Origin: an uncultured bacterium
GTDB lineage: Bacteria > Patescibacteriota > Saccharimonadia > Saccharimonadales > Saccharimonadaceae
Direction: 5' to 3'
Assembly (NCBI GenBank): GCA_966095765.1
Contig: CBHTSZ010000002.1
Coordinates: forward strand, 32,247-96,246
DNA: 64,000 bases
Shown here: positions 2,253 to 53,955 of the stretch, one piece after another
How the letters are laid out: every line of letters starts with the position of its first letter
How positions within the stretch are numbered: the first letter of the stretch is position 1
Position numbers and translations under genes: made by a program
The notes under the pieces: generated by a model
Seen by the model: the letters and a program-made list of their open reading frames with translations, nothing else
What the model was told of the DNA's origin: nothing
The model's database searches: none

Positions 2253-3308
2253 ATGAGCGATGACACCCAAACCCTAGAGCGAACCAATCAAAACGAGCTT
2301 CCGGCAGACATCTTGCCGGAGCAGCAGGATGCCTATGAGCCAACTGACATCTTTCAGTGGGCTAACAACCTGGTTCAGTACAAGGGTGATCTAAACGTCG
2401 ATCTCTTTTTGTTTAACAAAAACGGCATCGTCTACCGTACAAGCCGCAGTAGCGACCTCGATAAGCAGATGGAACCGCTGTTTATCGATGAAATACTCGA
2501 GTATGTACTCGACGGCGCGGAGCGGGGGATGATCGTGCGCGGGTTTGAGGAGGCTGAAGCCGAAGCGGATGTACTGCAACGGACTCGCACCAAAAATGTC
2601 GAAAAGGCGGTGAATGTTCTGAACTGGATCAAGACCCAGGAACATGAGATGGAAATGTTCAGCGACGAGACCCATGACATCAAACGTATGAAAGGTGCGA
2701 TCGCCCGCGTTTCTCACGAGGGTATGGATACGTTCTACGTGATCAAACAGCTGCCGGCAGCACAGATGATGAGCGGCCGGGTCGGGTGGATGGTTCGTAA
2801 CGGCAAGTTTGTGCCGTTTGATGCTGAGGCTGCTATCCGTGTCCCCGAAGACAACCAGTTGCTCGTGGTCGGTGAAGACATGTTTGTCTTCTCGCAACCG
2901 AAGCTCAAGAGTTTGTTCGGTTACGATGCCAAGGAGTCATACATCGCCGACCAAAAGGTGAAAGAGATCGAAGCGCATTTCCGTCTTAGCTTTGCTGAGG
3001 GCCTCACGATCCAGAATCTCGTCAAGGGTCGCCGTTCAACCATCAAGAAGCTGCAAAAGATCGAGCCGACACTGATGACCCAGGAGCAGCTCCTCAACCA
3101 TGCCGAAGAAGTCGGGGTTGATCTCATGGAAGATGACTCGGGCGCGATCATTATCATGGACGAAAAAGACCTCGTCAAATTCGTCAACTTGCTCAACGAC
3201 GATTACATAGAGTCGCCAGTGACCGGTCTTCGGTACGAGATCAAGAGCAAGAAACCACTGCGCGAGCCAGAGAGCAAAGAAGACGATAGCTTACTGATCC
3301 AGCTTTAG
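2253..3308 (+). CDS. hypothetical protein (351 aa), tentatively DUF4868/KwaB-like
   Basis: Clean ORF with TACAAT 8 nt before the ATG. The family resemblance is a weak recollection of size and layout only, not a motif match. Confidence 0.6.
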   Translation: MSDDTQTLERTNQNELPADILPEQQDAYEPTDIFQWANNLVQYKGDLNVDLFLFNKNGIVYRTSRSSDLDKQMEPLFIDEILEYVLDGAERGMIVRGFEEAEAEADVLQRTRTKNVEKAVNVLNWIKTQEHEMEMFSDETHDIKRMKGAIARVSHEGMDTFYVIKQLPAAQMMSGRVGWMVRNGKFVPFDAEAAIRVPEDNQLLVVGEDMFVFSQPKLKSLFGYDAKESYIADQKVKEIEAHFRLSFAEGLTIQNLVKGRRSTIKKLQKIEPTLMTQEQLLNHAEEVGVDLMEDDSGAIIIMDEKDLVKFVNLLNDDYIESPVTGLRYEIKSKKPLREPESKEDDSLLIQL

Positions 3309-12800: not shown

Positions 12801-14555
12801 TTGGCTTGTCGTGTTGGTCGTAACAAAGACGGTACGTCCCTTAGTGGTCGCGTTGGTTGGTGCTGGCAAAGTTATGGTGATATCCGTGCCCGTGGCACTG
12901 ACGATGATAGTGCCGTAGTTGTCGACATTACTCTGCGAAATCGTACAGTCAGTGGCACAGCTTGCGTTCGTCACGGTCATGTGTGCGCTGGGCCCGAGAT
13001 TGACGATACCCTTTGTGCCGGTTCCGTTTGCAGTACCGCCCGTGATCGTGACATCGCCGCCGTTACCGTTGGTGCCACCGCCAGCGCCACCCTGGATGAC
13101 AAGGTTGCCGCCGGTCAACGGTGTGCCGCCGCTGCCAGCAGCACCCGCAGTCATGGTTAGTGAGCGCCCCGCAATACCTGCTCCGGCAGTAGCCATCGAG
13201 ATGGCGTGGTCAGAGGCGGCATTAAAGGTAACATCGTTGATAGTGAGGTTGCCCGTGAAGGTTTTATCACCCGCGAATGTTTGCGTGCCCGTTCCCACCA
13301 TACCAGGGGCGGTAGCGCTTGCATTTTGAAAGATGATCGAGTTTCCGGATATGGTTGCACCATCGACTGCGGTGTTGGTTGTGCTGTAAGCTCCAACGGC
13401 CGTCACGCCGGTACCAGTACAGTTTGCGAGAGTCTGGAGACAAAAGATGTCATTTGCCGTAGTCACCGGGATGTCGTAGTTGTAGTTTGCTGCGAGGTTG
13501 CCGACTCGGATAGTGGCGTTGTTTGAGGAGCCGTCTGAGATGACAACGTTACCAGCGACACTGCCGGTTCCGATGGTGAGGGTGCTTGCTTGGATGGTCG
13601 TGTTTTGACCGAGGTTTATGGCGCTTGTGTTACTGCTTCCGATCGTCACAACACCGTTGATGCCTGTACCGGTTTTGGCGCCAGCGTTGATGACGACATC
13701 GCCACCGTTAGCATTGGTGCCGCCAGCTGCGCCACCTTGCAGGAGGAGGCTGCCGCCATTGCTGCCGCTGCCACTGCCGCCAGCACCTGCTGAAACCGAA
13801 AGTTGGCGTCCGGCAACGCCAGCAGCGGCAGCGGTTACAGATAGAGAGTGGTTGGCGTTATTGCCCAAGGTGATGTCGCCGGCATTAGAGACCGTGAAGA
13901 CATCGGTCGCTGATGCCTGGAGCTGCAAGAAGTTGCCAGTACTAGTCTTGTTGATGAAGACGCTCGTTGTGTTCGTCGAAGCATCCGTCTGTACGCCTTG
14001 GGCGAGCTGGAGGAACTGTGCGCTCGACAGGCCGCCGAGCTGGCCGGCATTGAGGGCGTACGGAGTCGCTGAAAGCCGTTTCATCGGGAGCATTTCTCCG
14101 TCTGGGCTACAGTTTGCAAAAGGGGTACAGGTCGCGTTTGTACCGGCAACGTTCATGCTGATCCAGAGCGTGTCCTGGTTCCAGTCGATAGAGCTTCCGA
14201 ACGGTGTGACTGAGCCGAGTTGTACCGAGAGGAAGCCATTACGGACGAGTACACCCTTGCTGTTCGCGTTGAGCCAAGACTCGGTCCATTTGAGCGTACC
14301 AGCAGGGGAGCCGGTCGTATTGCCGGCTGTTTGACCATCGCCATCCTGGTAGATCTTGAACTGGATGTTGTAGTAGCCATCAGGGACGGTGGCGCCTTGG
14401 GCGTTGAGGAGACGACCCTGGAAATTGATCTCTTTGCTGATTCCTGTGGCCGCCTGAGCAGGAGAGATTGCAACAAAAATAGACATGAAAACCATGCCTA
14501 TAAGCAGACTAATCCCCGCACTTACGCGAAATACACGCTGAGTCCTCGCACTCAT
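9843..14555 (-). CDS. giant secreted/surface protein (1570 aa), Gly/Thr/Ser/Asn-rich with CBM-like jelly-roll module
   Basis: Signal-like N-terminus ...ISPAQA. Two ~75-aa Gly-rich repeats (AGRQLSVSAGAGGSGSGSNGGSLLLQGGAAGGTNANGGDVVINAG and AGRSLTMTAGAAGSGGTPLTGGNLVIQGGAGGGTNGNGGDVTITGG). Central segment GNPGFESG...ARTGNNVLAI...FYFDDFYMK resembles a CBM4/9-type sugar-binding fold. Own promoter TTGTCA-N17-TATGCT in 14556-14653. Confidence 0.8.
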   Translation of the reverse strand: MSARTQRVFRVSAGISLLIGMVFMSIFVAISPAQAATGISKEINFQGRLLNAQGATVPDGYYNIQFKIYQDGDGQTAGNTTGSPAGTLKWTESWLNANSKGVLVRNGFLSVQLGSVTPFGSSIDWNQDTLWISMNVAGTNATCTPFANCSPDGEMLPMKRLSATPYALNAGQLGGLSSAQFLQLAQGVQTDASTNTTSVFINKTSTGNFLQLQASATDVFTVSNAGDITLGNNANHSLSVTAAAAGVAGRQLSVSAGAGGSGSGSNGGSLLLQGGAAGGTNANGGDVVINAGAKTGTGINGVVTIGSSNTSAINLGQNTTIQASTLTIGTGSVAGNVVISDGSSNNATIRVGNLAANYNYDIPVTTANDIFCLQTLANCTGTGVTAVGAYSTTNTAVDGATISGNSIIFQNASATAPGMVGTGTQTFAGDKTFTGNLTINDVTFNAASDHAISMATAGAGIAGRSLTMTAGAAGSGGTPLTGGNLVIQGGAGGGTNGNGGDVTITGGTANGTGTKGIVNLGPSAHMTVTNASCATDCTISQSNVDNYGTIIVSATGTDITITLPAPTNATTKGRTVFVTTNTTSQDFTLRTNSGADVIDVAMRKNTTSTMIWNGAAWTPGGASNATTLQATYNNGSNPATTPEIKLDSIRGTIDIQDADTSIGTDLLNIRGSNSLGLGTVLFGVSNTGRVTIQGTSDEYSAFRVLNSTGDYLFNINSSNNYVISNAIRSAGNEIGNPGFESGGLITGGEEGWFGPATSSILENNANARTGNNVLAITASTANIDVFAGSYYEINAGESLYLSGWVKNSAGANGNAGIQITWYNKDKGVISNSTAYGSTPGTSYIQRSVGAMAPAGTVYARVSATVRNSATTGTFYFDDFYMKRNLESADMTYRNATNSTTAFRIQSAGAGNTLFTADTANNAVRIGDNTGSDSDTSILVVDSANSDPTSLTGLNGGIFYRSDSGTLKAIIGGAVAEICTTAVTCPGYSASAGATVALQGTTPGTAQTGNFNITGTGILTAIKTQDNAAGSTQNLSIKTGNAGAGNSGNLTIDTGTATGTRGNITIGTGNVAVNMGGTLAIQGSNSLTLGQSATNTGSVLFHSSAGTNTVTLLGPTSSGSSYTLTLPSALGANGECLKINATGGMYYQGCGVGVNFNLQDAYNNSPTPANVALSDGKNFQITASDTSTTDPSIVMRLECTTGCTGTNGRFIVQNSTTDLLSVLPNGRIVLNGPTSIGSGASADGTQTIFQLDTYNGSTDASGTCSSSTNNGALYYNSTMGSIRGCINGSWNDISNPDTLGLLTFGVVPSSGSHPYDLPSLITPGYTGPCRVSWSGQSTLHVEPCTAYSNGRRVTVSATDLSTNSGTAPNINLSTSATWGHICLDEITGQPKFTTTAGQTSATSGLPNFSAAQPVLCLADVKGSTTTGGVIDDLYDVRTFTSAMKEAVTTSTAVELGMIADSSGSSVTPATCPGTTCSGKLYGLVVATNGTTSGTDPNTIVTSVGPGFVKAISGSAGQFAKGSTTNGYATTIATIPNNAFYFSPGNARTSYSTTCTAANNCNGSMYVNFIVR

Positions 14556-30740: not shown

Positions 30741-31327
30741 TTGTTTACTTGGATCTGGATCGCACGCTCTTCAAGACTGCAGATATGAGCCTGGTGTGGG
30801 AGTATATCGGCAGCCTGTACCCTGAGGCTGTCGACGCCTTTGATAGCGCCGAGACTTACTTCCACTACGTCGGGGATATGTACTACTACGATATGGGCGC
30901 ACATCTCACGTCGCTAGGGCTTGAACCGAGCGAAGTCTACGCAGCGGTGGCTAACTCAGAACTTGCTGACGGCCGTCTCGAGGCTGAGGGTTCAAAGGCG
31001 CTTATCGATGCGCTGACGCGCGACGGATACGAGGTCCAGGTACTGACTTTTGGGAGTGATGACTACCAGCGGTTCAAGGCCTCTCTCTGTCCATCGCTAC
31101 GCGAGGTTCCAGTTGTGACGGTACTTCGGTCAAAGGCCGATGTGCTCGAGGAGCTCGGCGAGGAATGTTGGCTTGTTGATGACCGGCCGCTCGGTGATGA
31201 GTTGCCGGGAAACGTTAGTTTTGTACAGGTAAGCCCTGATGGTAGGGCAGTGCCGCATGACGCCGACTGGACAGTCAAGCAGTCACTCTTAGAAGTAAAG
31301 GAGTTTTTCGATGCGATCAGCCACTAA
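30737..31327 (+). CDS. HAD-superfamily hydrolase-like protein
   Basis: Start at ATG 30737 (ATGA overlap with the upstream stop). Motif I is YLDLDRTLF. Confidence 0.55.
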   Translation: MIVYLDLDRTLFKTADMSLVWEYIGSLYPEAVDAFDSAETYFHYVGDMYYYDMGAHLTSLGLEPSEVYAAVANSELADGRLEAEGSKALIDALTRDGYEVQVLTFGSDDYQRFKASLCPSLREVPVVTVLRSKADVLEELGEECWLVDDRPLGDELPGNVSFVQVSPDGRAVPHDADWTVKQSLLEVKEFFDAISH

Positions 31328-32417: not shown

Positions 32418-32486
32418 TACAAAAGCCGAACATTCTGTGGATAACTGCGGCGCTTGCTAAAAAAATAAGCAAAAAAGGTATTGCGT

Positions 32487-47984: not shown

Positions 47985-48187
47985 ACGTCTAATGCTTATA
48001 ACTATACAGTCAATTGCCCATACTACGTGAAATGCTCGAAAATGCAAACGACAATGGTAATTTTATGTAGCGTTTCATGAGTAAGCATAAAAAGTATGTG
48101 ATATTTTTCACAATCCTGTTGACATGGGTATTTGACGGGAGCACACTGGAAATAAGTTCCCTGACAAAGAGACACAGAGCATTACTA

Positions 48188-48216
48188 TTGACAAAAACAC
48201 CGAAATATGGTAATTT
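48188..48216 (+). promoter_or_regulatory. promoter of cassette B
   Basis: TTGACA - 17 nt - TAATTT. Confidence 0.55.
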
Positions 48217-48294
48217 GCCATATGGTTCCGCTTTGTGCTTTAAAAAAGGCGAACAAGCACTTTCTCATCCGACCACTACGTAAGGAGTAGAATC

Positions 48295-48615
48295 ATGACC
48301 ATCGCTTCCGAAGCCCGGGTCGCGAACGCTTTCGAGCTGTCGCTCAACCTCGGTTTCAGTCTCAACGGCGACGAGGTCGAACGCGTGGCCGAGGTCATGC
48401 GTCACATCTCCGTGTACAACCACATGGAGGTGCAGATCCCCGCGCGCATGAGTGCGACCGAGCGTGCGCAGATGGTTGAGGATTTCCTCGGCCAGTTCCT
48501 GCCCCACAAGACGGCCAGCCTGCTGGCCAGCCGTCTCCGGAGTAACGTCGAAGGCCTGGTGGTTCTCCACTGCCCACGCGACCGTTACTTCACCCTGCTC
48601 GTCGAGCACAGCTGA
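48295..48615 (+). CDS. GC-rich hypothetical protein (cassette B, 106 aa)
   Basis: SD TAAGGAG 7 nt before the ATG. High third-position GC. Terminator at 48648-48685. No motif recognised. Confidence 0.65.
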   Translation: MTIASEARVANAFELSLNLGFSLNGDEVERVAEVMRHISVYNHMEVQIPARMSATERAQMVEDFLGQFLPHKTASLLASRLRSNVEGLVVLHCPRDRYFTLLVEHS

Positions 48616-48647
48616 CGCGCACTACTCCGACAATTCGGATGAGATAT

Positions 48648-48685
48648 CCGGCCACCCTAAGCGGTGGCCGGTTCTCATTTTCTGA
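48648..48685 (+). terminator. terminator of cassette B
   Basis: ccggccacc-ctaagc-ggtggccgg followed by ttctcattttctg. Confidence 0.7.
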
Positions 48686-48784
48686 GACTCGCTTGCTCGC
48701 TTATAAGACAAAACTACGTTTTTTTCTCATCGCGCCAGGCGCGGAGTAAATCCGCTGCTTGGGCTGCTCTTTTTCCTTAGCTTA

Positions 48785-49633
48785 CTAGAGGCACCAGCGA
48801 TTTGCGCCGAGCGGGCGTATGGCCCCGCGTATTTCGAGCATTGTCATCGTCTGCGAGTAGGCGTTGGGGTCGAGCTTGCTCGTTGCCTGTAGTTCATCGC
48901 CATCTGTTATGCCTCTGGCTAGCAAATCCAGGATTGCTTGCTCTTCTCTGCTTTGTGCAAGAACCGTAAGCTGCCCGCCTTGTGTTGTTGGTAGGAGCTG
49001 TTCTACAAACTGTTCGACATTGACGATCGGCGTGGCACCTTGGGCGATGAGCGCGTTACAGCCGGCGCTCATCGCACTGGTTATTGGCCCCGGTACGGCG
49101 TAGACGTCTCTACCCTGTTCGAGTGCGTGCATGGTGGTATTCATCGTGCCGCTGCGGATACTTGCCTCGGTGACGATAACGATATCGGCGAGGCCACTTA
49201 CTAGCCTATTGCGTTCGAGGAAGCGGTATTGGAGTGGTGGTGTGCCTGGTTCGTACTCGCTGATAAGTGCCCCGTTCTGCTCTACGATCTTATGTGCCAG
49301 GGCTCGGTGTGTGCTCGGGTAGATACGGTCCACTCCTGATGGAAGTACGGCGATTGTGCGGCCACCAGCTCCCAGTGTCGCTTCATGGGCGATGCTATCA
49401 ACGCCGTGAGCAAGCCCACTGACGATAATCGCCCCACGCTCTGCGAGTCGTGAGGCGATATCAGCGGTGACCTGGCGGCCATAGGTGGTTGGTTTGCGTG
49501 TACCGACGATGGCAATACCGAGCGTGTACTCTGGTAATGCGCCGATGCTATAGAGGTGCTTTGGGCGTTGCGGTATCTCCTGGAGTCGGGATGGAAACGT
49601 CGGATCTGTACCGCTTATGCTATTGATTTTCAT
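48785..49633 (-). CDS. dprA: DNA processing protein DprA (Smf)
   Basis: GLAHGVDSIAHEATL, Rossmann-like core, C-terminal winged-helix-like tail. Confidence 0.85.
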   Translation of the reverse strand: MKINSISGTDPTFPSRLQEIPQRPKHLYSIGALPEYTLGIAIVGTRKPTTYGRQVTADIASRLAERGAIIVSGLAHGVDSIAHEATLGAGGRTIAVLPSGVDRIYPSTHRALAHKIVEQNGALISEYEPGTPPLQYRFLERNRLVSGLADIVIVTEASIRSGTMNTTMHALEQGRDVYAVPGPITSAMSAGCNALIAQGATPIVNVEQFVEQLLPTTQGGQLTVLAQSREEQAILDLLARGITDGDELQATSKLDPNAYSQTMTMLEIRGAIRPLGANRWCL

Positions 49634-49653
49634 AAAAAAGGTGTTAAATAGTA

Positions 49654-49682
49654 TTGACTTTATGTCTAAACAGTGCTAATAT
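49654..49682 (+). promoter_or_regulatory. promoter of the orphan RNA locus
   Basis: TTGACT (49654-59) - 17 nt - TAATAT (49677-82). Confidence 0.55.
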
Positions 49683-49688
49683 ACTGTA

Positions 49689-50073
49689 TGGTTGATCGCG
49701 AAAGCGTTCAAACGCACCTTATACCCCCAATTCTAACGTAAGTTAGAGTGCGCGTGTACTAGCATTGAAGTTTTCTACCCTCCACTTCAACGCATCAAAT
49801 AGTCACGTGCATACTAACCCCTTTAACCCCTTATTATCTCTGCGAGGTGGTAAGGACCCCGATTTTTCAGGCGGACCACGTTATGGCAAGTATGAAGAAC
49901 TGGTTTATCCCAGGCGCACGATGCGTACCTAAATACATCAGTAGCGCTTTGCCGTGAGTAGCCCGGGTGGGTTGAAGGGTCGAATGGTGCCAGGTGATGC
50001 CCACCCTTACCTGGTACCTTTCGAAGAATACGGTATAAGAAAATAACCCCGATATATGTCGGGGTTATTTTTA
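49689..50073 (+). ncRNA. candidate structured non-coding RNA (~385 nt), class unknown
   Basis: No credible ORF. Bracketed by a promoter and a terminator. GNRA-capped hairpins at 49697-49706 and 49733-49746. 7-bp hairpin 49765-71/49784-90. Long-range 8-bp complement 49718-25/50032-39. Interleaved (pseudoknot-type) pairings 49965-71/50000-06 and 49986-94/50010-18. Confidence 0.45.
50042..50073. terminator. bidirectional terminator
   Basis: aataaccccga-tatatg-tcggggttatt with T/A runs on both sides. Confidence 0.7.
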
Positions 50074-50099
50074 TGGTGAGTAATATGGCAAATGCAAAC

Positions 50100-50138
50100 G
50101 CCCCCGACCGTTTATGGGTCGGGGGCTTTGTTTGACAG
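50100..50138. repeat. palindromic terminator element, variant copy, with TTTGTTTGACAG tail
   Basis: gcccccgac-cgtttatgg-gtcgggggc followed by tttgtttgacag. Lies directly after the cassette C stop. Confidence 0.6.
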
Positions 50139-50148
50139 TATGGACTGC

Positions 50149-50388
50149 TTATCGGTAGTGGGGGTACTTGCCGGACTCGACGCCGTGGACGAGTCGCTCC
50201 AAGCTCGTCTTGTCGTGATGCTTGGCGGCTCGCCAGAGACGCATAAAGAGCCGTGTGCGCTCTCGTCGGGTGCCCATCTCGGGCCTGTAGGTGATCTCTT
50301 CTGAGCCGTCTTCCATGATCGTTACGTCGAGCAGCATGAACGCTCGCAGCAGCGGCATCATGACGAGCAGGCGCAGGTAGCTGAACAT
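50149..50388 (-). CDS. GC-rich hypothetical protein (cassette C, 79 aa)
   Basis: ATG at 50388 follows the shared leader. High GC3. Sequence MFSYLRLLVMMPLLRAF... Confidence 0.55.
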   Translation of the reverse strand: MFSYLRLLVMMPLLRAFMLLDVTIMEDGSEEITYRPEMGTRRERTRLFMRLWRAAKHHDKTSLERLVHGVESGKYPHYR

Positions 50389-50403
50389 GATCGTTCTCTT
50401 TTC

Positions 50404-50470
50404 TGTCAAAACTCCATTTCGGAGCGGTGGTGGGCTGGAGAATCTCGCGGCTTTCGCCGCTCGACGAAAT
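50404..50470 (-). promoter_or_regulatory. conserved 5' leader stem, copy 1 (cassette C)
   Basis: Minus strand: TTTCGTCGAGCGG...CCGCTCCGAAAtggagttttgacag. Starts ~8 nt after the -10. Confidence 0.55.
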
Positions 50471-50478
50471 TAAATGCA

Positions 50479-50507
50479 ATCTTAGTATTGGATCGATAGT
50501 TTGTCAA
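50479..50507 (-). promoter_or_regulatory. promoter of cassette C
   Basis: Minus strand: TTGACA - 17 nt - TAAGAT. Confidence 0.55.
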
Positions 50508-50564
50508 CGTTTCAGAAATGAACTAAGCCCTGACAAAACGTCAGGGCTTAGAGCTTGGGTTGGA

Positions 50565-50735
50565 TCAGACGAGGCGCAACTGGCGCCAGATGAACTGGTT
50601 CTTCCGCTGCTTGCCAAAGTGGGGCTGCAGTTCGGCGTGTACGTTACAAAACGGGACCAGACCGCGTGTCTCGGAGTTGTGCTCCCAGGTTGCGATGTCG
50701 CCGCAGTCACTGCAGACTTCGAGCTCCAGGCTCAT
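50565..50735 (-). CDS. GC-rich hypothetical small protein (cassette D, 56 aa), Cys/His-containing
   Basis: MSLELEVCSDCGDIATWEHNSETRGLVPFCNVH... has a CxxC...CxxH zinc-ribbon-like pattern. Follows the shared leader. Confidence 0.5.
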   Translation of the reverse strand: MSLELEVCSDCGDIATWEHNSETRGLVPFCNVHAELQPHFGKQRKNQFIWRQLRLV

Positions 50736-50763
50736 GATACATCGTCCTTCTTTCAAGCTCCTT

Positions 50764-50809
50764 GTCTCGGAGCGGCCGACAAAAAAATACGCTCCGCCGC
50801 TCGACGAAA
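50764..50809 (-). promoter_or_regulatory. conserved 5' leader stem, copy 2 (cassette D)
   Basis: Minus strand: TTTCGTCGAGCGGC...GCCGCTCCGAGAcaaggagcttgaaag. Confidence 0.55.
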
Positions 50810-50817
50810 CTCATATA

Positions 50818-50846
50818 ACGATAAGCTAGATGGTTGTCGTGGTCAA
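50818..50846 (-). promoter_or_regulatory. promoter of cassette D
   Basis: Minus strand: TTGACC - 17 nt - TATCGT. Confidence 0.45.
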
Positions 50847-50852
50847 TAAATG

Positions 50853-50890
50853 AACAACCCCCGGCATGAAAACCGGGGGTTGTTTGACAG
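50853..50890. repeat. palindromic terminator element, copy with loop CATGAAAA
   Basis: aacaacccccgg-catgaaaa-ccgggggttgtt followed by tgacag. Confidence 0.7.
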
Positions 50891-50891
50891 G

Positions 50892-51302
50892 CTAGCGGCC
50901 GAGCTTCTTGAGGTTCTCGATTGCCTCGCAGAGACGCGCGGAGGTCATGGTGTCTCGAAGATTTCGTGATCGGGGAAAGATATCAATTTTGCCGTTCGAG
51001 AGAACGAACACCTGGCTGTGTTGGTAGCCTGGTGCGTCCATGTAGGGCTCCTTGAAAATTTCCCAAGCCGCTGTTTGATTAACAGTAACCTCCTTGCCCG
51101 ACCACCAAGAGCGCTTGGTCTGGCCCAGCAATACTCCGCCCGGCCATCCCTTCGCTTCGAGGCGTCGGAGCGCCGACTTCGCTTCCTGCTGAAGTTCCGA
51201 CCAGAGATGCTCAAGTCTGACTTGATCTTCACGCTCACGCTGTCGACTTGCTGCCTGCCTGCCCGCTTCTCGCTGCCTAAGGATTTCCTCGGGGGTGGGC
51301 AT
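50892..51302 (-). CDS. GC-rich hypothetical protein (cassette E, 136 aa)
   Basis: ATG at 51302 after GAAGGTG. Charged N-terminal helix (REAGRQAASRQREREDQVRLEHLWSEL). The C-terminal half aligns loosely with cassette F. Confidence 0.55.
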   Translation of the reverse strand: MPTPEEILRQREAGRQAASRQREREDQVRLEHLWSELQQEAKSALRRLEAKGWPGGVLLGQTKRSWWSGKEVTVNQTAAWEIFKEPYMDAPGYQHSQVFVLSNGKIDIFPRSRNLRDTMTSARLCEAIENLKKLGR

Positions 51303-51327
51303 GGGTTCACCTTCTCTCTTCTCTTGC

Positions 51328-51385
51328 CTGTCAAACTTCCTTTCGGAGAGACAGGATGTGTGGACATCGAGTCTCTCGACGAAAC
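51328..51385 (-). promoter_or_regulatory. conserved 5' leader stem, copy 3 (cassette E)
   Basis: Minus strand: TTTCGTCGAGAGAC...GTCTCTCCGAAAggaagtttgacag. Inner stem changed on both arms. Confidence 0.55.
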
Positions 51386-51392
51386 TGATGTA

Positions 51393-51421
51393 AAAATAAA
51401 ACAAAATCTATATATTGTCAA
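51393..51421 (-). promoter_or_regulatory. promoter of cassette E
   Basis: Minus strand: TTGACA - 17 nt - TATTTT. Confidence 0.45.
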
Positions 51422-51425
51422 TATG

Positions 51426-51464
51426 AAACAACCCCCGGTTTTCATGCCGGGGGTTGTTTGACAG
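51426..51464. repeat. palindromic terminator element, copy with inverted loop TTTTCATG
   Basis: aaacaacccccgg-ttttcatg-ccgggggttgttt followed by gacag. The 32-nt core is the exact reverse complement of 50853-50884. Confidence 0.7.
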
Positions 51465-51469
51465 GTGAC

Positions 51470-51868
51470 TCAGCAGTATTCGAGCGCCTGGATGGACCGG
51501 AATAGCAGATCCAGTCGGTCCAGGTCGTACTTGCCGAGCTGGGCTCGAATGTACTGTCCGCCGCCAGCCGCCGCGTAGACGATGCCGTCGGAGCCGAGAT
51601 AGAGCGTTCCCATCTCGTCACGCCATACCTCGTGGAGGTGCAGCGTGCTGCCGCTCCAGCCACGCAGCGGGCCCAAGAGGCGGTGGGCCTTACCCTGCCG
51701 GCGGACTGAAGCAACGAAGCCGCACCGCGTGGTGCTGCGGAGGGACCGGGCGACACGCATGCCCTCGTGATGGATGGCGCCGAGAAGCTCTTCTTTCCTG
51801 ATGTCGTTTCGCATGCTTCCCGGCAGCGAAACGGCGTGGAAGGTGCTAAGCAACTGCAGTGGTGACAT
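51470..51868 (-). CDS. GC-rich hypothetical protein (cassette F, 132 aa), Arg-rich
   Basis: SD GAAAGG before the ATG. Very high GC3. Own promoter directly after the pth stop. Confidence 0.6.
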   Translation of the reverse strand: MSPLQLLSTFHAVSLPGSMRNDIRKEELLGAIHHEGMRVARSLRSTTRCGFVASVRRQGKAHRLLGPLRGWSGSTLHLHEVWRDEMGTLYLGSDGIVYAAAGGGQYIRAQLGKYDLDRLDLLFRSIQALEYC

Positions 51869-51956
51869 AGCGATGCCTTTCGATGTCTCGTGCGTGACCT
51901 GCCAAACTACATTTGGATACGCGAAAGTTGCCCTTCACGCTTAACAAACTGTGCTC

Positions 51957-51985
51957 ACAATAGAGGACACAGATGGAACTGTCAA
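51957..51985 (-). promoter_or_regulatory. promoter of cassette F
   Basis: Minus strand: TTGACA - 17 nt - TATTGT. Confidence 0.5.
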
Positions 51986-51991
51986 CGCGTT

Positions 51992-52546
51992 TTAGGCGTG
52001 CGTCGTGGATTCGAAAGAGCCGGAGATAAAGCGATCGATGATCGTGGAGACTTTGCTTACGAGTTGGTCAAGCGCTTCGTCCTCGGTGCGAGTGAAGTTA
52101 CTGAGTACAAAGTCGGCGTCATCGATGCGGTCACGGAGCTCGTTATAGACACCGATGCGGATACGGGCGGTACCCTGTCCGAGATGCTGGTTCATCGACT
52201 TGATGCCGTTGTTGCCAGCGTCAGAACCGCCGATACGTGTACGGATCGTGCCGAACGGTAAAGCAAGCTCGTCATGAACGATAAGTACGTCTTCGGGTGC
52301 GATCTTGTAAAAGTCACTGATGAGGCGTGCGGCTTCACCGGTGAGGTTGTAGTACGTTGTCGGTTTGGCGAGAATGATCTTTTCGCCGCCTACAGCGAAC
52401 TCGGCGACACAGGCGCGGAACTTCTCTTTTATAGAGAACTCGATACCTTTCTCTTTGGCGTATTCGCTCAGCATGCGAAACCCGACATTGTGGCGGGTAT
52501 TCTTAAACTTTTCTTCTGGGTTGCCGAGGGCGATGATCAGCTTCAT
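51992..52546 (-). CDS. pth: peptidyl-tRNA hydrolase
   Basis: MKLIIALGNPEEKFKNTRHNVGF. Start reassigned to the ATG at 52546. Confidence 0.9.
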   Translation of the reverse strand: MKLIIALGNPEEKFKNTRHNVGFRMLSEYAKEKGIEFSIKEKFRACVAEFAVGGEKIILAKPTTYYNLTGEAARLISDFYKIAPEDVLIVHDELALPFGTIRTRIGGSDAGNNGIKSMNQHLGQGTARIRIGVYNELRDRIDDADFVLSNFTRTEDEALDQLVSKVSTIIDRFISGSFESTTHA

Positions 52547-52568
52547 ATCTGTCGTTAAGTATAGAGTA

Positions 52569-52597
52569 TTGCATAAATAGTAAACATATGCTATAAT
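52569..52597 (+). promoter_or_regulatory. promoter of cassette G
   Basis: TTGCAT - 17 nt - TATAAT. Overlaps the divergent pth upstream region. Confidence 0.6.
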
Positions 52598-52658
52598 ATA
52601 TAAGTTCGTAGTCCTTCGCCTCCGGATCGTCCGGAGGCTCCTTCCCCAAGGAGAGAAC

Positions 52659-53030
52659 ATGAACAAGTACCAGAAGATCGCGTTCGCCGCGCCTGCTGCA
52701 CTGGCAGTCGCCTTCCTGATCGCTTGGGTCTACGGCTTCGACGGCCTCGGTCTGGCGATCATCGTGACGCTCATCATCGCGCTGCTCACGCTGCCGATCG
52801 TCTGGAGGGCCATCTACGGGCTCGTCCAGCTGATCGCCAGTACCATCGCCTTCATCGGACACGGTGTCGGCAAGATCGGCGACACCGTCGCAGACTTCGC
52901 CTTCACCCGCCGTCAGCGCCTGGCCTCTGCGGCCAACAAGGTTCCCGACTGGGACACCCTGCGCAAGGCGGATGTCGACGAGTCACGTGCGAGTATCGAC
53001 GATCTGCTGCAGCCCCACCCCGTATCCTGA
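52659..53030 (+). CDS. GC-rich hypothetical membrane protein (cassette G, 123 aa)
   Basis: SD AAGGAGAG. About three TM helices followed by a charged tail. High GC3. Leader contains hairpin cctccgga-tcg-tccggagg. Confidence 0.65.
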   Translation: MNKYQKIAFAAPAALAVAFLIAWVYGFDGLGLAIIVTLIIALLTLPIVWRAIYGLVQLIASTIAFIGHGVGKIGDTVADFAFTRRQRLASAANKVPDWDTLRKADVDESRASIDDLLQPHPVS

Positions 53031-53040
53031 AAAGGTTGAG

Positions 53041-53076
53041 CCCTGCTCCCTTCTCGGGTGCGGGGTTCTTCCTTTT
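53041..53076 (+). terminator. terminator of cassette G
   Basis: ccctgc(t)ccc-ttctc-ggg(t)gcgggg followed by ttcttccttttt. Confidence 0.55.
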
Positions 53077-53124
53077 TCATCGCTTATGATTTTATGAATC
53101 ACTCGCCTGCGCTACACTGAGAAA

Positions 53125-53955
53125 ATGCAACCATCACGACGGCAACGAAATGAGCTCGCACGCACGCTCAAGCAGTTCGCTTTTGAGCAGAGCCCGCTCT
53201 TTGGCGAGAACAAAGTACAAGCTATGGAGGTGACACAGTCTTTCGAGATTATCGAAAAAGTCCCCGAAGACTGTCTCATACCCGGTACGCTCCAATTTGA
53301 TCAGCTGAAAATAAAGCTCGGTTTTACGGCAACGCGCTTTAGTGAAAGTGTGAAAGCAAAGCCTGTGTACTCATACCTTGCATCGGTCGAAGGTACTCAG
53401 CTCATCCACCCTCGGCAGCTCAACTTGAGCGATGATGCATGGGTGGCGCTCTGGAAGAAGTATCTCGAAGACGAAGAAGAGATTGATCCCGAAGAGCTTG
53501 CTGCAGGTAATGTATTGCACGCGGAAACCGTTCCGGCAGACATGAAGGACGAGATCATCGATGTGTTGATCGACGCGGGTGCGGAGTGCGAACTCTATCA
53601 GAAAAGCATGCTGAGCTTCTCGTCATGTGAGCCAGGCATCGAGTCAAGTTACGAGCGTGGTATCAGTATCGAAAACGCCCTGTTTGATTCGGTCAGTACG
53701 CACGATCATTTTGACGATGATTGGGATTCGTTCAATACGCCAGATGGTGTCCTCTATGTGCCGCCACCGTACGCACCCGATGAGCTGCCTATCGGTGACG
53801 AAATCGAGGTGCGGACCCAGTTTATCGATGTGGTACGAGGCTTGGGTATGGATAAAGAGGCGTCAGAAAACGACCTCTTGCCTCACGAACACAAGCTGCG
53901 TGAGATGATGCACGTTGTCGAGTGTCTCCGTAGGCGACGAATCGACCTAGGCTAG
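53125..53955 (+). CDS. hypothetical acidic protein (276 aa)
   Basis: Clean ORF. TACACT lies 6 nt before the ATG. No motif recognised. Confidence 0.6.
   Translation: MQPSRRQRNELARTLKQFAFEQSPLFGENKVQAMEVTQSFEIIEKVPEDCLIPGTLQFDQLKIKLGFTATRFSESVKAKPVYSYLASVEGTQLIHPRQLNLSDDAWVALWKKYLEDEEEIDPEELAAGNVLHAETVPADMKDEIIDVLIDAGAECELYQKSMLSFSSCEPGIESSYERGISIENALFDSVSTHDHFDDDWDSFNTPDGVLYVPPPYAPDELPIGDEIEVRTQFIDVVRGLGMDKEASENDLLPHEHKLREMMHVVECLRRRRIDLG

What the first reader, a model, noticed from the sequence alone, without database searches (positions are those of the whole stretch)
48050..53100. Islet of GC-rich, individually promoted micro-cassettes filling the gaps between housekeeping genes
There are six short ORFs:
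- B: 48295-48615 (+)
- C: 50149-50388 (-)
- D: 50565-50735 (-)
- E: 50892-51302 (-)
- F: 51470-51868 (-)
- G: 52659-53030 (+)

They are 56-136 aa long. They are visibly more GC-rich than topA, dprA, pth and der around them, above all at third codon positions. By eye this is roughly 60-65% against about 50%; I did not compute it.

Each ORF sits in its own AT-rich frame with three parts:
- a sigma70-like promoter with exact 17-nt spacing (48188-48216, 50479-50507, 50818-50846, 51393-51421, 51957-51985, 52569-52597);
- a 60-90 nt leader;
- a GC hairpin terminator (cassettes B-E and G; F is followed directly by the palindromic element, which could terminate it).

This contrasts with the many leaderless genes elsewhere in the window. 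Together the cassettes occupy the intergenic gaps topA|dprA, dprA|pth and pth|next gene, apart from the dprA-proximal 450 bp that carry the orphan RNA locus. I recognise no catalytic or domain motif in any of the six products.

The composition suggests acquisition from a high-GC donor. If the genome is a Saccharibacteria-type episymbiont (inference), its Actinomycetota hosts or their phages are obvious candidates. The products could then be small effectors, immunity proteins or moron-like proteins.
Basis: partly seen in the sequence, partly recalled or inferred. Interest (0 to 1): 0.8.

Follow-up and report, generated by a model that had tools for sequence, protein, structure and literature searches.

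The report
Self-closing small-gene cassettes in Saccharibacteria
The GC-rich mini-genes are real, but they look like native, long-kept Saccharibacteria genes rather than DNA borrowed from a host, and most carry a previously undescribed conserved leader whose sequence pairs with the tail of the same messenger RNA.

Summary
B, C, D, F and G have GC3 of 0.78-0.84 against 0.59±0.05 for 47 neighbouring genes; E does not differ (0.635). dN/dS of 0.10-0.48 for these five against a relative shows real genes.

The interpretation, recent import from Actinomycetota or their phages, is not supported. Relatives turned up only on contigs with Saccharibacteria gene order (big-database searches covered only B, F and G). 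B and G sit at the same sites (topA|B|dprA, pth|G) in distant relatives. They keep the same GC3 excess there, so the excess is maintained, not a scar of transfer.

C, D, E and F belong to a variable array between pth and dprA. Its content differs between close relatives. Each unit has a σ70 promoter and a conserved leader with no Rfam match. The leader has a hairpin that by inference lies at the 5' end of the transcript, supported by covariation. It also has a GGAG box complementary to the unit's own 3' UTR: 17 of 24 cassettes, with co-varying variants. B shows the same 5'-3' complementarity.

The likeliest mechanism is a closed-loop mRNA that controls stability or translation, as in hbs, icaR and aapA1. 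The protein functions remain unknown.

The parts
48188..48216 (+). Promoter of B: TTGACA, 17-nt spacer counted to the TAATTT hexamer, extended -10 TGgTAATTT
   Evidence: Exact positions. The -35 and -10 are conserved in L001, L027, L029 and L030 (alignment A15). The site is below the threshold of the consensus scan.
48264..48290 (+). B leader segments CTCATCCGA (48264-48272) and the Shine-Dalgarno GGAGTAG (48284-48290), both complementary to B's 3' UTR
   Evidence: CTCATCC and GGAGTAG are conserved across B-family loci.
48295..48615 (+). ORF B, 106 aa: clade-specific α/β protein with conserved C-terminus ...HCPxDxxFTLxVEH
   Evidence: GC3 0.83. dN/dS 0.20. 18 family representatives. Syntenic topA|B|dprA in L029, L030 and L032. 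AlphaFold2 pLDDT 89.8 with no PDB fold match.
48622..48671 (+). B 3' UTR: CTACTCC (48622-48628) and TCGGATGAG (48635-48643), complementary to the leader, then terminator hairpin 48648-48671
   Evidence: The true 3' UTR window ranks in the best 0-2% of control windows in 6 of 7 B loci. Variants co-vary: CUCAUCCA/UGGAUGAG, CUCAUCGG/CCGAUGAG.
50100..50138 (-). C terminator hairpin (50100-50126) preceded by CTGTCAAA (50131-50138), the complement of C's leader box
   Evidence: The hairpin is scored as a terminator on both strands and also closes the neighbouring RNA locus on the + strand.
50149..50388 (-). ORF C, 79 aa, with a hydrophobic N-terminus shared with a 155-aa array protein of L035
   Evidence: GC3 0.81. 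dN/dS 0.30. jackhmmer hit to L035_6718 at 4.7e-11.
50398..50507 (-). C promoter (-35 50502-50507, -10 50479-50484) and conserved leader (50398-50470): P1 strands 50457-50469 and 50417-50427, box 50403-50415
   Evidence: Covariance-model hit of 60.7 bits.
50519..50557 (-). D terminator hairpin (50523-50551) overlapped by CAAGCTC (50551-50557), the complement of D's leader box GAGCTTG
   Evidence: This is the best of 314 control windows for D.
50565..50735 (-). ORF D, 56 aa, with a CxxC...CxxH pattern; found only in the window and L001
   Evidence: GC3 0.81. dN/dS 0.10. jackhmmer finds only the L001 orthologue.
50745..50846 (-). D promoter (-35 50841-50846) and leader (50745-50810): P1 strands 50796-50809 and 50765-50776, box 50750-50761
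   Evidence: (60.9 bits).
50853..50892 (-). E terminator palindrome (50853-50884) with GCCTGTCAAAC (50882-50892), the complement of E's leader box; also the left border of the slot that is swapped in L001
50892..51302 (-). ORF E, 136 aa (helix, GWPGG, β-strands, C-terminal helix); GC3 is not elevated
   Evidence: GC3 0.635. Homologue in the L036 array at 8.6e-15. Absent from L001, where 2.5 kb of other genes lie between the same hairpins.
51323..51421 (-). E promoter (-35 51416-51421) and leader (51323-51385): P1 strands 51371-51384 and 51341-51352, box 51326-51340
   Evidence: (60.8 bits). The P1 inner stem GAGAGAC/GTCTCTC is compensatory relative to GAGCGGC/GCCGCTC of C and D.
51427..51469 (-). 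F terminator palindrome (second copy, loop inverted) with GTCACCTGTCAAAC (51456-51469), complementary to F's leader box; right border of the E slot
51470..51868 (-). ORF F, 132 aa, member of a small family with the motif W...LWLGxDGxxY...C-terminal helix
   Evidence: GC3 0.78. dN/dS 0.21. A profile search finds 10 clusters in 5.8 billion proteins. AlphaFold2 model is poor, pLDDT 59.8. Synonymous-shuffle z = -3.8.
51880..51985 (-). F promoter (51957-51985) and a diverged leader with box GTAGTTTGGCAGGTCAC (51894-51910)
   Evidence: The L001 copy scores 17.2 bits with the model; the window copy scores below E = 1.
52569..52653 (+). G promoter (TTGCAT, 17-nt spacer counted to the TATAAT hexamer, extended -10 TGcTATAAT) and leader: hairpin 52618-52638, then CTCCTT/AAGGAG hairpin 52638-52653 that would hide the Shine-Dalgarno
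   Evidence: The leader shows 89% mean column identity across window, L001 and L044, although pth of L044 is only 51% identical in protein.
52659..53030 (+). ORF G, 123 aa, hydrophobic N-terminal half suggesting a membrane protein
   Evidence: GC3 0.84. dN/dS 0.48. 5 clusters only. Syntenic pth|G in L044 with GC3 0.84 against 0.45-0.57 for neighbours.

Best explanation
These are Saccharibacteria-restricted small genes, each built as its own, heavily engineered transcription unit. They are not recently imported foreign DNA.

There are two kinds:
- B and G are old, clade-specific genes fixed at one site each: topA|B|dprA and pth|G.
- C, D, E and F are units of a variable array between pth and the RNA locus next to dprA. 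The units are added, lost and swapped between close relatives.

Each array unit consists of, in order:
1. a σ70-type promoter;
2. a conserved leader that starts about 8-9 nt after the -10 element, so that a 12-15 bp hairpin (P1) sits at the very 5' end of the mRNA;
3. an invariant GGAG-containing box;
4. the unit's own Shine-Dalgarno sequence and a 56-170 codon ORF;
5. a 3' UTR segment complementary to that unit's own box;
6. an intrinsic terminator.

The full-length mRNA can therefore close on itself, with P1 and the terminator capping the two ends. A local alternative hairpin (CUCCGAAAUCGGAG) competes with this closure. B uses the same principle, and there the 3' UTR also covers the Shine-Dalgarno.

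I infer that closure sets mRNA lifetime and/or gates translation of the finished transcript. The high GC3 is a maintained, gene-specific property, possibly linked to selection on mRNA folding.

Shown here: coding status, family distribution, synteny, persistence of the GC3 excess, covariation in P1, and 5'-3' complementarity with co-varying variants.

Inferred: the transcription start sites, that the pairing happens in RNA, its effect, and the cause of the GC3 excess.

Unknown: what the proteins do.
For: Coding status and composition:
- GC3 is as given in the observation check.
- dN/dS is 0.10-0.48 for B, C, D, F and G. Their dS is 0.30-0.68 against 0.82-2.0 for neighbouring genes.

Native and long-kept:
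- B-family genes lie between topA and dprA in L029 and L032, and next to dprA in L030.
- Their GC3 against neighbours is 0.80 vs 0.57-0.62, 0.71 vs 0.43-0.50 and 0.89 vs 0.60-0.65.
- L032's topA is only 58% identical to the window's.
- The G homologue in L044 has GC3 0.84 against 0.45-0.57.

Variable array:
- Window: C-D-E-F.
- L001: C, a 169-aa gene, D, a 141-aa gene, Fur, CbiA-like, a second 141-aa gene, F.
- L027: two F-family genes only.
- L024: a 160-aa F-family gene preceded by a weak (23.9-bit) leader match, plus an unrelated 160-aa ORF on the opposite strand.

Leader:
- The exact word TTTCGTCGAG occurs three times in the window, only in the C, D and E leaders.
- A pattern scan of metagenomes gave 10 further loci. 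Seven of them show pth, dprA, topA or the neighbouring RNA block, and in five the motif lies between pth and dprA. The same scan of viral contigs gave none.
- The covariance model finds 26 copies in 442 kb, and none in the more distant genomes.
- For P1, 94.1% of cells are paired against 80.6% in shuffles (0 of 500 shuffles reach this). The covariation score is 0.338 against 0.113 (0 of 500). Slid controls give 31-55% paired. Four inner pairs show several pair types.
- There is no Rfam match.

5'-3' complementarity:
- The true 3' UTR window is in the best 5% of 220-400 control windows in 17 of 24 cassettes. In 14 of them no control window does as well.
- Variants co-vary. Two include G·U pairs.
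- Unconstrained minimum-free-energy folds of whole transcripts pair the box with the 3' UTR in 6 of 8 cases.
- In the B family the true window is in the best 0-2% in 6 of 7 loci, with compensatory variants.

mRNA folding:
- Synonymous-codon shuffles give z = -3.7 for B and -3.8 for F.

Precedents for 5'/3'-UTR pairing:
- hbs has a 14-bp interaction that modulates RNase Y cleavage (PMC5737220).
- icaR has 5'-3' UTR base pairing that controls its translation (PMC3868564, title).
- aapA1's full-length fold blocks translation until the 3' end is processed (PMC5416894).
Against: - No expression data are available. Transcription start sites, transcript ends and RNA pairing are all predictions.
- Seven of 24 array cassettes show no significant 5'-3' complementarity. 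G and ORF482 do not either.
- Synonymous-shuffle z-scores are near zero for C, D, E and G. Selection on mRNA folding therefore cannot by itself explain the GC3 excess.
- The cassettes' codon bias raises both C- and G-ending codons: NNR-G is 0.85 against 0.57 for host genes. This looks compositional and is what a foreign origin would also give.
- C, D and E were not searched against the large protein databases.
- Counts across cassettes are not phylogenetically independent.
- The unity of the array proteins as one superfamily is weak: hhalign probability 49% on a short motif, and E against the F family only 0.9%.
Confidence: 0.6

Rival explanations
1. The cassettes are recent horizontal acquisitions from a high-GC donor, either an Actinomycetota host or its phages, and the GC3 excess is the donor's signature that has not yet been erased.
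For: - The GC3 excess is large and affects both C- and G-ending codons. Arg/(Arg+Lys) is 0.74 against 0.50 for host genes, as in high-GC genomes.
- The cassettes are missing from some close relatives.
- One unrelated gene in the L001 array has a weak match to the SCO5389 / NucS-shadow family: E = 0.004 and 0.0005, both below the curated cut-offs.
Against: - No homologue was found in phage, plasmid or IMG/VR collections for any of the six.
- The B, F and G families are tiny. No member carries a source name, and every member whose contig was examined sits in Saccharibacteria-type gene order.
- B and G occupy the same site in genomes whose housekeeping proteins are only 48-58% identical, and they keep the same GC3 excess there. 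At that divergence a donor signature should have decayed (established amelioration argument; my inference).
- G (GC3 0.84) and the adjacent co-inserted H276 (GC3 0.58) differ, so the signal is per gene, not per island.
- There is no tRNA gene in the window, and no integrase or phage gene was noticed (the ORFs were inspected only by eye).
Confidence: 0.1
2. A DNA-level cassette system. The inverted repeats flanking each ORF (box upstream, complement downstream) are recombination sites. The conserved junction of terminator, promoter, hairpin and box would act like an integron attC or another exchange site, and this would explain the cassette turnover.
For: - Each ORF is bracketed by its own co-varying inverted repeat.
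- All array units point the same way, and the junctions are conserved while the ORFs vary.
- The extra cassette in L001 equals one junction-to-junction unit. The E slot is swapped between identical hairpins.
- One repeat type, GTTTGAC/GTCAAAC, matches the integron core GTTRRRY/RYYYAAC at 6 of 7 positions (my reading of the sequence; the consensus is from memory).
Against: - Every cassette has its own promoter and leader, unlike typical integron cassettes.
- The second repeat type, GGAGCTTGA/TCAAGCTCC, does not fit the core consensus.
- Two pairings need G·U, which works in RNA but is a mismatch in duplex DNA.
- Both arms lie inside one predicted transcript, directly next to the 5' hairpin and the terminator.
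- B, which is not in an array and is positionally stable, has the same kind of complementarity.
- No integrase was noticed, although this was not searched systematically.
- Ordinary homologous recombination between repeated junctions in a naturally competent organism would explain the turnover without a dedicated recombinase (inference).
Confidence: 0.15
3. Type I toxin-antitoxin-like loci. The ORFs are toxins whose full-length mRNA is kept inert by fold-back pairing, as in hok or aapA1, with an antisense RNA antitoxin.
For: - There is 5'-3' fold-back complementarity plus a competing local hairpin. This resembles the aapA1 design (PMC5416894, PMC6733600).
- The units occur as multiple tandem copies in intergenic space.
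- C has a hydrophobic N-terminus and G a largely hydrophobic N-terminal half.
Against: - Most products are 100-170 aa and hydrophilic, not peptides under 60 aa that target membranes.
- The consensus scan finds no promoter on the opposite strand of C, D, E or F.
- There are no PADLOC or Pfam toxin hits.
- dN/dS and long-term synteny of B and G fit ordinary cellular proteins.
Confidence: 0.07
4. For the GC3 excess only. It reflects very high expression (translational selection for preferred codons), or GC-biased gene conversion at a recombination hotspot, rather than selection on mRNA structure.
For: - Promoters are near consensus, Shine-Dalgarno sequences are strong, and both mRNA ends are protected, which suggests abundant messages.
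- dS is 2-3 times lower than in neighbouring genes, as expected when synonymous sites are constrained.
- The array is visibly recombinogenic.
- The excess recurs in 20 of 27 leader-associated ORFs across genomes (excess of +0.10 or more).
Against: - ATP synthase genes, the only likely well-expressed genes in the window, shift towards C-ending codons only and away from NNG (0.53 against 0.57). The cassettes raise both.
- B and G are positionally stable, not obviously hotspots.
- Ribosomal protein genes of this genome could not be fetched, so the decisive comparison is missing.
Confidence: 0.3

Closest known systems
Bacillus subtilis hbs mRNA (5'/3'-UTR interaction; PMC5737220)
   Same: Both are small, separately transcribed genes with a highly structured 5' UTR. 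In both, a long-range pairing of about 8-14 bp links the 5' and 3' UTRs next to the terminator. In hbs this pairing modulates RNase Y cleavage in the leader.
   Different: Here the design is repeated over a whole array and over at least two unrelated gene families. The conserved leader motif is shared between paralogous units. The organism is a CPR episymbiont. Nothing has been tested experimentally.
Staphylococcus aureus icaR mRNA (3' UTR pairs with the Shine-Dalgarno region; PMC3868564)
   Same: B's 3' UTR contains CUACUCC, complementary to its Shine-Dalgarno GGAGUAG. In several array units the predicted duplex reaches the Shine-Dalgarno region.
   Different: icaR has a long 3' UTR with a UCCCCUG motif (my recollection of the paper). 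Here the complement lies 2-15 nt after the stop codon and abuts the terminator. In the array the main target is a separate conserved box, not the Shine-Dalgarno itself.
hok/sok and aapA1/IsoA1 type I toxin mRNAs (fold-back inhibition and metastable hairpins; PMC5416894, PMC6733600)
   Same: In both, the full-length transcript can be closed by its two ends, and a competing local hairpin exists. Both occur as several copies in intergenic regions.
   Different: The products here are mostly 100-170 aa soluble proteins. No antisense promoter is found and there is no evidence of toxicity.
Integron or CALIN cassette arrays
   Same: Both are co-oriented arrays of unrelated or highly diverged small ORFs separated by conserved structured junctions. 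In both, each ORF is flanked by its own inverted repeat, and content varies between strains.
   Different: Here every unit has its own promoter and leader. No integrase is seen. The junctions fold as two separate hairpins rather than one attC hairpin. The repeats fit RNA pairing, including G·U.
Flexible genomic islets at hotspots between core genes
   Same: Variable accessory genes fill the gaps in a conserved block: rluB-der-pth-dprA-topA-sigma factor.
   Different: Their composition is GC-richer than the host's, not AT-richer, and it stays so over deep divergence. Some members (B, G) are as positionally stable as core genes.

Membership tests
Recently acquired foreign islet (horizontal transfer from a high-GC donor) | Composition atypical for the host genome | tested here: met
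   GC3 is 0.78-0.84 against 0.59±0.05 for five of the six ORFs.
Recently acquired foreign islet (horizontal transfer from a high-GC donor) | Homologues in the proposed donor group (Actinomycetota or their phages) | tested here: not met
   There were no hits in phage, plasmid or IMG/VR collections for any ORF. The B, F and G families have few members, none with a source name; every member whose contig was examined sits in Saccharibacteria-type gene order. C, D and E were not searched in the large protein databases.
Recently acquired foreign islet (horizontal transfer from a high-GC donor) | Absent from the same locus in distant relatives | tested here: not met
   B is syntenic in L029, L030 and L032. 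G is syntenic in L044. The feature is met only for C, D and E, which are confined to close relatives or have diverged homologues in arrays.
Recently acquired foreign islet (horizontal transfer from a high-GC donor) | Compositional signal decays with time in the recipient | tested here: not met
   The GC3 excess of B and G homologues is as large in lineages whose topA or pth proteins are 51-58% identical.
Integron-type cassette array | Integron integrase adjacent to the array | not tested
   None was noticed among the window ORFs read by eye. No systematic domain scan of all window ORFs was run.
Integron-type cassette array | Promoterless cassettes expressed from a common promoter | tested here: not met
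   Each unit has its own promoter at a fixed 8-9 nt before the leader.
Integron-type cassette array | attC sites with R''/R' cores (RYYYAAC/GTTRRRY) forming one imperfect hairpin | tested here: inconclusive
   One repeat type fits 6 of 7 positions and the other does not. The junctions contain two independent hairpins. The consensus was recalled from memory, and no attC model was available.
Type I toxin-antitoxin | Small hydrophobic toxin peptide, usually under 60 aa | tested here: not met
   The products are 56-170 aa and mostly hydrophilic.
Type I toxin-antitoxin | Antisense RNA gene overlapping or next to the toxin mRNA | tested here: not met
   The consensus scan reports no + strand promoter inside the C-F array. 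This is weak evidence, because the scan uses a consensus only.
Type I toxin-antitoxin | Fold-back pairing of the mRNA 5' and 3' ends | tested here: met
mRNAs regulated by 5'/3'-UTR pairing (hbs, icaR type) | Complementarity between the 5' UTR and 3' UTR of the same transcript, beyond chance | tested here: met
   17 of 24 array units and 6 of 7 B loci rank in the best 5% or 2% of control windows.
mRNAs regulated by 5'/3'-UTR pairing (hbs, icaR type) | Pairing preserved by compensatory change | tested here: met
   At least six co-varying variants occur in the array and three in the B family.
mRNAs regulated by 5'/3'-UTR pairing (hbs, icaR type) | Pairing alters stability or translation | not testable with these tools
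   This needs half-life and reporter assays with compensatory mutants.
Known RNA families (Rfam 15) | Match to a curated covariance model | tested here: not met
   There was no match at gathering score in the window. Nothing credible appeared at E ≤ 1 in 49600-52000.
Known protein families (Pfam, PHROGs, NCBIfam, PADLOC, PDB) | Significant profile or fold match | tested here: not met
   The A12 profile's hits to designer 'Pizza' propellers arise from summed weak matches of one short blade-like motif.

The most novel reading that the evidence does not exclude
Saccharibacteria of this clade carry a modular 'expression socket' system. Conserved junctions, made of terminator, promoter, 5'-terminal hairpin and box, separate hypervariable ORFs that are exchanged between strains by recombination at the junctions. 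Each ORF's flanks co-evolve so that its mRNA closes into a nuclease-resistant, translationally gated loop, to be activated by processing or by a trans-acting factor. One candidate factor is the conserved C-rich RNA next door. The array would then be a diversity-generating locus for host-interaction or immunity proteins in an episymbiont with few transcription factors. The maintained GC3 excess would be a signature of selection for long-lived, compact mRNAs.
Probability: 0.2. Interest if true: 0.8.

Novelty: new variant of a known kind. Interest (0 to 1): 0.62.

Why it matters
Post-transcriptional control in CPR/Patescibacteria is poorly explored, to my knowledge, and these organisms are thought to have few regulators. 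This finding offers three things.

1. A conserved, covariation-supported leader motif shared by a whole array of genes, with 5'-3' mRNA closure that recurs in two unrelated gene families. This gives a concrete, testable regulatory device in Saccharibacteria. It also extends a mechanism known from a handful of single genes (hbs, icaR, type I toxins) to a family-wide design.

2. A caution for genome scans. A strong GC3 excess here is a stable property of particular native genes, not evidence of horizontal transfer.

3. A set of clade-specific, rapidly diversifying small proteins at a fixed locus. These are candidates for host interaction in an episymbiont in which, as I recall, genetic tools exist for at least one cultivated member of the phylum.

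Tried and rejected
- **Concatenated query.** Joining all seven small proteins into one query for the search for homologous proteins found nothing, not even the proteins themselves, and wasted one of three searches.
- **Family libraries.** Pfam, PHROGs, PADLOC and NCBIfam gave nothing above noise.
- **Collection searches.** tblastn against phages and plasmids and seven IMG/VR protein scans gave no relatives.
- **Fold search.** The confident B model has no PDB match. The F model is too poor to use.
- **SUKH-type immunity proteins.** The LGxDGxxY motif suggested this, but there is no profile support, so I rejected membership.
- **β-propeller blade.** Only a short-motif resemblance exists.
- **E as an F-family member.** hhalign probability is 0.9%. 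A single superfamily for all array proteins is only weakly supported, at 49% on one motif.
- **Recent exchange of cassettes between the window and L001.** I rejected this because cassette nucleotide identity (78-88%) equals that of housekeeping genes.
- **A second promoter at the TTGACA inside the box.** There is no -10 element at the right distance (read from the sequence).
- **A leader peptide (MEFDR).** The ATG and its reading frame are not conserved.
- **Ribosomal protein genes of this genome.** I could not fetch them for a codon-usage test, because the genome is not in the gene-position index.
- **Literature.** Two searches on Saccharibacteria (GC content/horizontal transfer; hypervariable small proteins) returned nothing relevant by title or abstract.

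Full report
**1. What is in the sequence**

All six ORFs exist at the stated coordinates. The window has 52.7% GC. Its 47 larger ORFs have a mean GC3 of 0.588, sd 0.048, maximum 0.69.

| ORF | GC3 |
|---|---|
| B | 0.83 |
| C | 0.81 |
| D | 0.81 |
| E | 0.635 |
| F | 0.78 |
| G | 0.84 |

I compared each ORF with every same-length in-frame window of the host genes. B, C, F and G exceed all of about 11,000-13,500 windows. D is in the top 0.3%. E is unremarkable, with 35% of windows as high. A seventh ORF of the same kind lies outside the finding at 482-859(-), with GC3 0.88.

The scan's threshold misses them, but their core hexamers are conserved in most relatives aligned. Transcription itself was not tested.

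**2. They are real genes**

A related contig, L001 (Logan SRR22424159), is 78-88% identical in nucleotides over this region. It carries orthologues of B, C, D, F and G.

- dN/dS for these five is 0.10-0.48, which indicates purifying selection on the proteins.
- Their dS (0.30-0.68) is two to three times lower than that of dprA, pth, der, rluB and H276 (0.82-2.0).
- Cassette nucleotide identity is the same as that of the housekeeping genes. The low dS therefore reflects constraint on synonymous sites rather than a more recent common origin.

**3. The organism and the neighbourhood**

A scan of one genome per species shows that the window is from Saccharibacteria. The block rluB-der-pth-dprA-topA-sigma factor is conserved across the phylum. 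The gaps in this block vary. They are almost closed in L008 and L011, and filled with different ORFans elsewhere. Several of those ORFans also have raised GC3: L018 9065-9619 at 0.84 against 0.63, L005 10993-11445 at 0.70 against 0.46, and L007 7075-7641 at 0.73 against 0.51. None has a Pfam match.

**4. The foreign-origin idea does not hold**

- None of the six proteins, nor ORF482, matches Pfam, PHROGs, PADLOC or NCBIfam.
- tblastn of all of them against 50,697 phage records and 72,556 plasmids found nothing.
- IMG/VR scans were negative for B, C, D, E, the F family, G and ORF482.
- An exhaustive phmmer search of 1.84 billion representatives with B found 18 small proteins of 83-181 aa, plus one weak hit (E = 2.6e-4) in a 2,919-aa protein. 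Four were located on contigs. In L029 and L032 the B homologue lies between topA and dprA, convergent with dprA as in the window. In L030 it lies next to dprA with one small ORF between. L031 is too short to tell.
- Identity to the window's B falls to 37-45%. L032's topA and dprA are 58% and 48% identical to the window's.
- In every one of these lineages the B homologue keeps a GC3 excess of 0.2-0.3 over its neighbours.
- G behaves the same way. It has five clusters in 5.8 billion proteins. L044, whose pth is 51% identical, has pth|G with GC3 0.84 against 0.45-0.57, and an almost unchanged leader.

At that depth synonymous sites are saturated, so a donor's signature should have decayed. The excess must be maintained gene by gene (inference from the standard amelioration argument).

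G and H276 are adjacent and are present or absent together, yet they have GC3 of 0.84 and 0.58. The signal is therefore not island-wide.

One limit remains. C, D and E could not be searched in the big protein databases, because one of the three searches was lost to a failed concatenated query.

**5. C, D, E and F are units of a variable array**

Between pth and the RNA locus next to dprA, the content differs between relatives:

| Genome | Content of the gap |
|---|---|
| Window | C-D-E-F |
| L001 | C, a 169-aa gene, D, a 141-aa gene, Fur, a CbiA/ParA-like gene, another 141-aa gene, F |
| L027 (topA 91.5% identical) | two F-family genes only |
| L024 (UBA6572, topA 87%) | a 160-aa F-family gene (weak leader match) and an unrelated 160-aa ORF on the opposite strand |

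- The E slot is bounded by two copies of a 33-nt palindrome, at 50853-50885 and 51426-51458. The arms are perfect and the loop is inverted. In L001, 2.5 kb of other genes lie between the same palindromes.
- F belongs to a family of ten clusters in 5.8 billion proteins, with invariant L91, G92, G95 and Y98 inside an LWLGxDGxxY motif (W71 and D94 are invariant only among the first five members).
- E has a homologue in the L036 array. C shares its N-terminus with a 155-aa array protein of L035. D is found only in the window and L001.
- By eye most array proteins share a pattern: helix, GWP, β-strands with a hhhxSDGxhY motif, then a C-terminal helix. Profile-profile support for one superfamily is weak, at 49% probability on that motif alone.

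**6. A conserved leader RNA**

The upstream regions of C, D and E share a module. The exact word TTTCGTCGAG occurs three times in the window, only there. It occurs three times in L001, in the leaders of C, the 169-aa gene and D.

The motif reads: 5'-(A/G)UUUCGUNGAG, then a variable stem-loop, then CUCCGARA, then 1-5 nt, then GGAGYUUGA.

It begins 8-9 nt after the -10 hexamer in every copy. The hairpin P1 should therefore sit at the extreme 5' end of the transcript (inference).

- A pattern scan of JGI metagenomes returned ten loci. Seven of them show pth, dprA, topA or the neighbouring RNA block, and in five the motif lies between pth and dprA. The same scan of IMG/VR returned none.
- The pattern fixed only the flanks, so the inner stem is an unbiased test. 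On 17 distinct leaders, 94.1% of cells pair against 80.6% in shuffles (0 of 500). The covariation score is 0.338 against 0.113 (0 of 500). Slid controls give 31-55%. The four inner pairs each show several pair types.
- A covariance model built from 20 copies finds 26 copies in 442 kb of held sequence. There are up to three per genome in L035 and L042, and five or six in L001. There are none in the more distant genomes L005-L019 and L026.
- Rfam 15 has no match.
- A local alternative hairpin, CUCCGAAAUCGGAG, competes with the 3' strand of P1. It wins in the minimum-free-energy folds of several copies.

**7. The leader box pairs with the unit's own 3' UTR**

The 2-15 nt after each stop codon, directly before the terminator, carry the reverse complement of that unit's box. 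I used RNAduplex to compare the 18-nt box with the 32 nt after the stop, against 220-400 control windows from the same strand.

- The true window is in the best 5% in 17 of 24 cassettes. In 14 of them no control window does as well. The binomial p is about 2e-17, but the cassettes are not independent.
- The pairing partners co-vary:

| Box | 3' UTR complement | Where |
|---|---|---|
| CGGAGCUUGA(A/G) | (U/C)UCAAGCUCCG | several loci |
| GGAGCCU | AGGCUCC | L035 |
| GUUUGACAGGC | GCCUGUCAAAC | E, L042 |
| ...AGGU(CU) | (AG)ACCU... | L001, L027 |
| GUUUGACACU | AGUGUCGAAC (one U·G) | L039 |

- F needs one G·U pair.
- Unconstrained folds of whole transcripts of 290-580 nt pair the box with the 3' UTR in six of eight cases. 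The other two choose the local hairpin.
- B is not in the array and has a different leader, yet it has the same design. CUCAUCCGA and the Shine-Dalgarno GGAGUAG in the leader match UCGGAUGAG and CUACUCC in the 3' UTR. Compensatory variants occur in L029 (CUCAUCCA/UGGAUGAG) and in L032 and L031 (CUCAUCGG/CCGAUGAG). The true window ranks in the best 0-2% in six of seven loci.
- G and ORF482 do not pass this test. G instead has a local CUCCUU/AAGGAG hairpin over its Shine-Dalgarno.

**8. How it most likely works**

- Shown: each unit is bracketed by structures at both ends, and by a co-varying complementarity between its two UTRs.
- Inferred: the full-length mRNA closes on itself, with P1 and the terminator capping the ends.

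The known precedents are:
- the 14-bp 5'/3'-UTR interaction of B. subtilis hbs, which modulates RNase Y cleavage (PMC5737220);
- the full-length fold of H. pylori aapA1 mRNA, which blocks translation until the 3' end is processed (PMC5416894).

The likeliest effect is therefore long mRNA life and/or gating of translation, with the local hairpin as the alternative state.

The cause of the GC3 excess is unresolved.
- Cassette mRNAs fold more stably than host genes: -0.36 to -0.45 against -0.25 to -0.33 kcal/mol per nt.
- Synonymous-codon shuffles give z = -3.7 for B and -3.8 for F, but about 0 for C, D, E and G.
- Codon usage shifts to both C- and G-ending codons. This differs from the trend in the ATP synthase genes.
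- Selection on mRNA folding, expression-linked codon selection and biased gene conversion all remain open.
- Ribosomal protein genes of this genome could not be fetched.

**9. Rivals**

- Recent transfer from a high-GC donor is unlikely, for the reasons in section 4.
- A DNA-level cassette system (integron-like) would also explain the ORF-flanking inverted repeats and the turnover. Against it: every unit has its own promoter, one repeat type does not fit the attC core, two pairings need G·U, and the positionally stable B has the same feature.
- Type I toxin-antitoxin loci share the fold-back design. The products, however, are mostly 100-170 aa soluble proteins, and no antisense promoter is found.

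**10. Protein function**

B folds confidently into a small α/β domain (pLDDT 89.8) with no PDB neighbour. The F model is unreliable. No function can be assigned. Roles as effectors, immunity proteins or regulators are all open.

**11. Verdict**

The composition anomaly and the cassette-like anatomy are real. The transfer story is not supported.

What is there is more interesting. It is a clade-wide, variable array of autonomous small genes that share an undescribed structured leader. It also shows 5'-3' mRNA closure recurring in unrelated gene families, with a GC3 excess that is maintained rather than inherited from a donor. I place it as a new variant of a known kind of regulation, namely 5'/3'-UTR pairing. 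All mechanistic steps still await transcript and structure data.

Noticed in passing
window 49634-50075 (+), between dprA and cassette C: This is a structured RNA gene of about 385 nt, with promoter 49654-49682 and terminator near 50045-50072. It is 97-100% identical to L001 while flanking genes are about 80% identical. Conserved blocks occur in nearly every Saccharibacteria locus that spans this gap, including the distant L005, L007 and L018. RNAalifold on nine loci gives 60 pairs, 23 of them with compensatory changes. One hairpin loop reads UUCUACCCUCCAC, which resembles an anti-Shine-Dalgarno sequence. There is no Rfam match.
   Followed up: partly
window 482-859 (-): This is a seventh GC3-rich small ORF (125 aa, GC3 0.88) with its own AT-rich promoter region. 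It has an orthologue in L002-L004. Its 5' end AGTTCTTTC is complementary to GAAAGAACT at the stop codon, but that did not pass the control-window test.
   Followed up: partly
window 2253-3308 (+) and neighbours: The 351-aa protein's orthologue in L002 carries the KwaB domain (PF16162) of the Kiwa anti-phage system, next to a 189-aa ORF and a LOR-family protein. This may be a defence locus.
   Followed up: no
L001 3655-6215: In place of cassette E, and between the same palindromic hairpins, L001 carries four genes: a 141-aa F-family gene, a Fur-family regulator, a CbiA/ParA-like ATPase, and a 141-aa protein with weak matches to the SCO5389 / NucS-shadow family (E = 0.004 and 0.0005, below the curated cut-offs).
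   Followed up: partly
L024 9998-10441 (UBA6572): dprA appears disrupted. Only residues 1-126 and 252-282 align, in separate pieces. A 405-aa repeat protein with a GxDGxxWF repeat, which I take to be propeller-like, lies between dprA and topA where B sits in the window.
   Followed up: no
window 53125-53955 (+): H276 is an acidic 276-aa clade-specific protein with normal GC3 (0.58) and very low dN/dS (0.044). It is present together with G in the window and L001, and lies next to pth in L035 and L040. It has no family match.
   Followed up: partly
window 570-599, 31134-31163, 32423-32452: A three-copy direct-repeat family of 30 nt at 73-77% identity links ORF482 to two other regions of the window. 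It could be chance, or it could mark diverged paralogues.
   Followed up: no
window 50853-50885 and 51426-51458: The two terminator palindromes have identical stems but loops that are reverse complements of each other (CATGAAAA and TTTTCATG). The pair is therefore at once an 85% direct repeat and a 100% inverted repeat. Loop inversion or recombination within the stem could produce this.
   Followed up: partly
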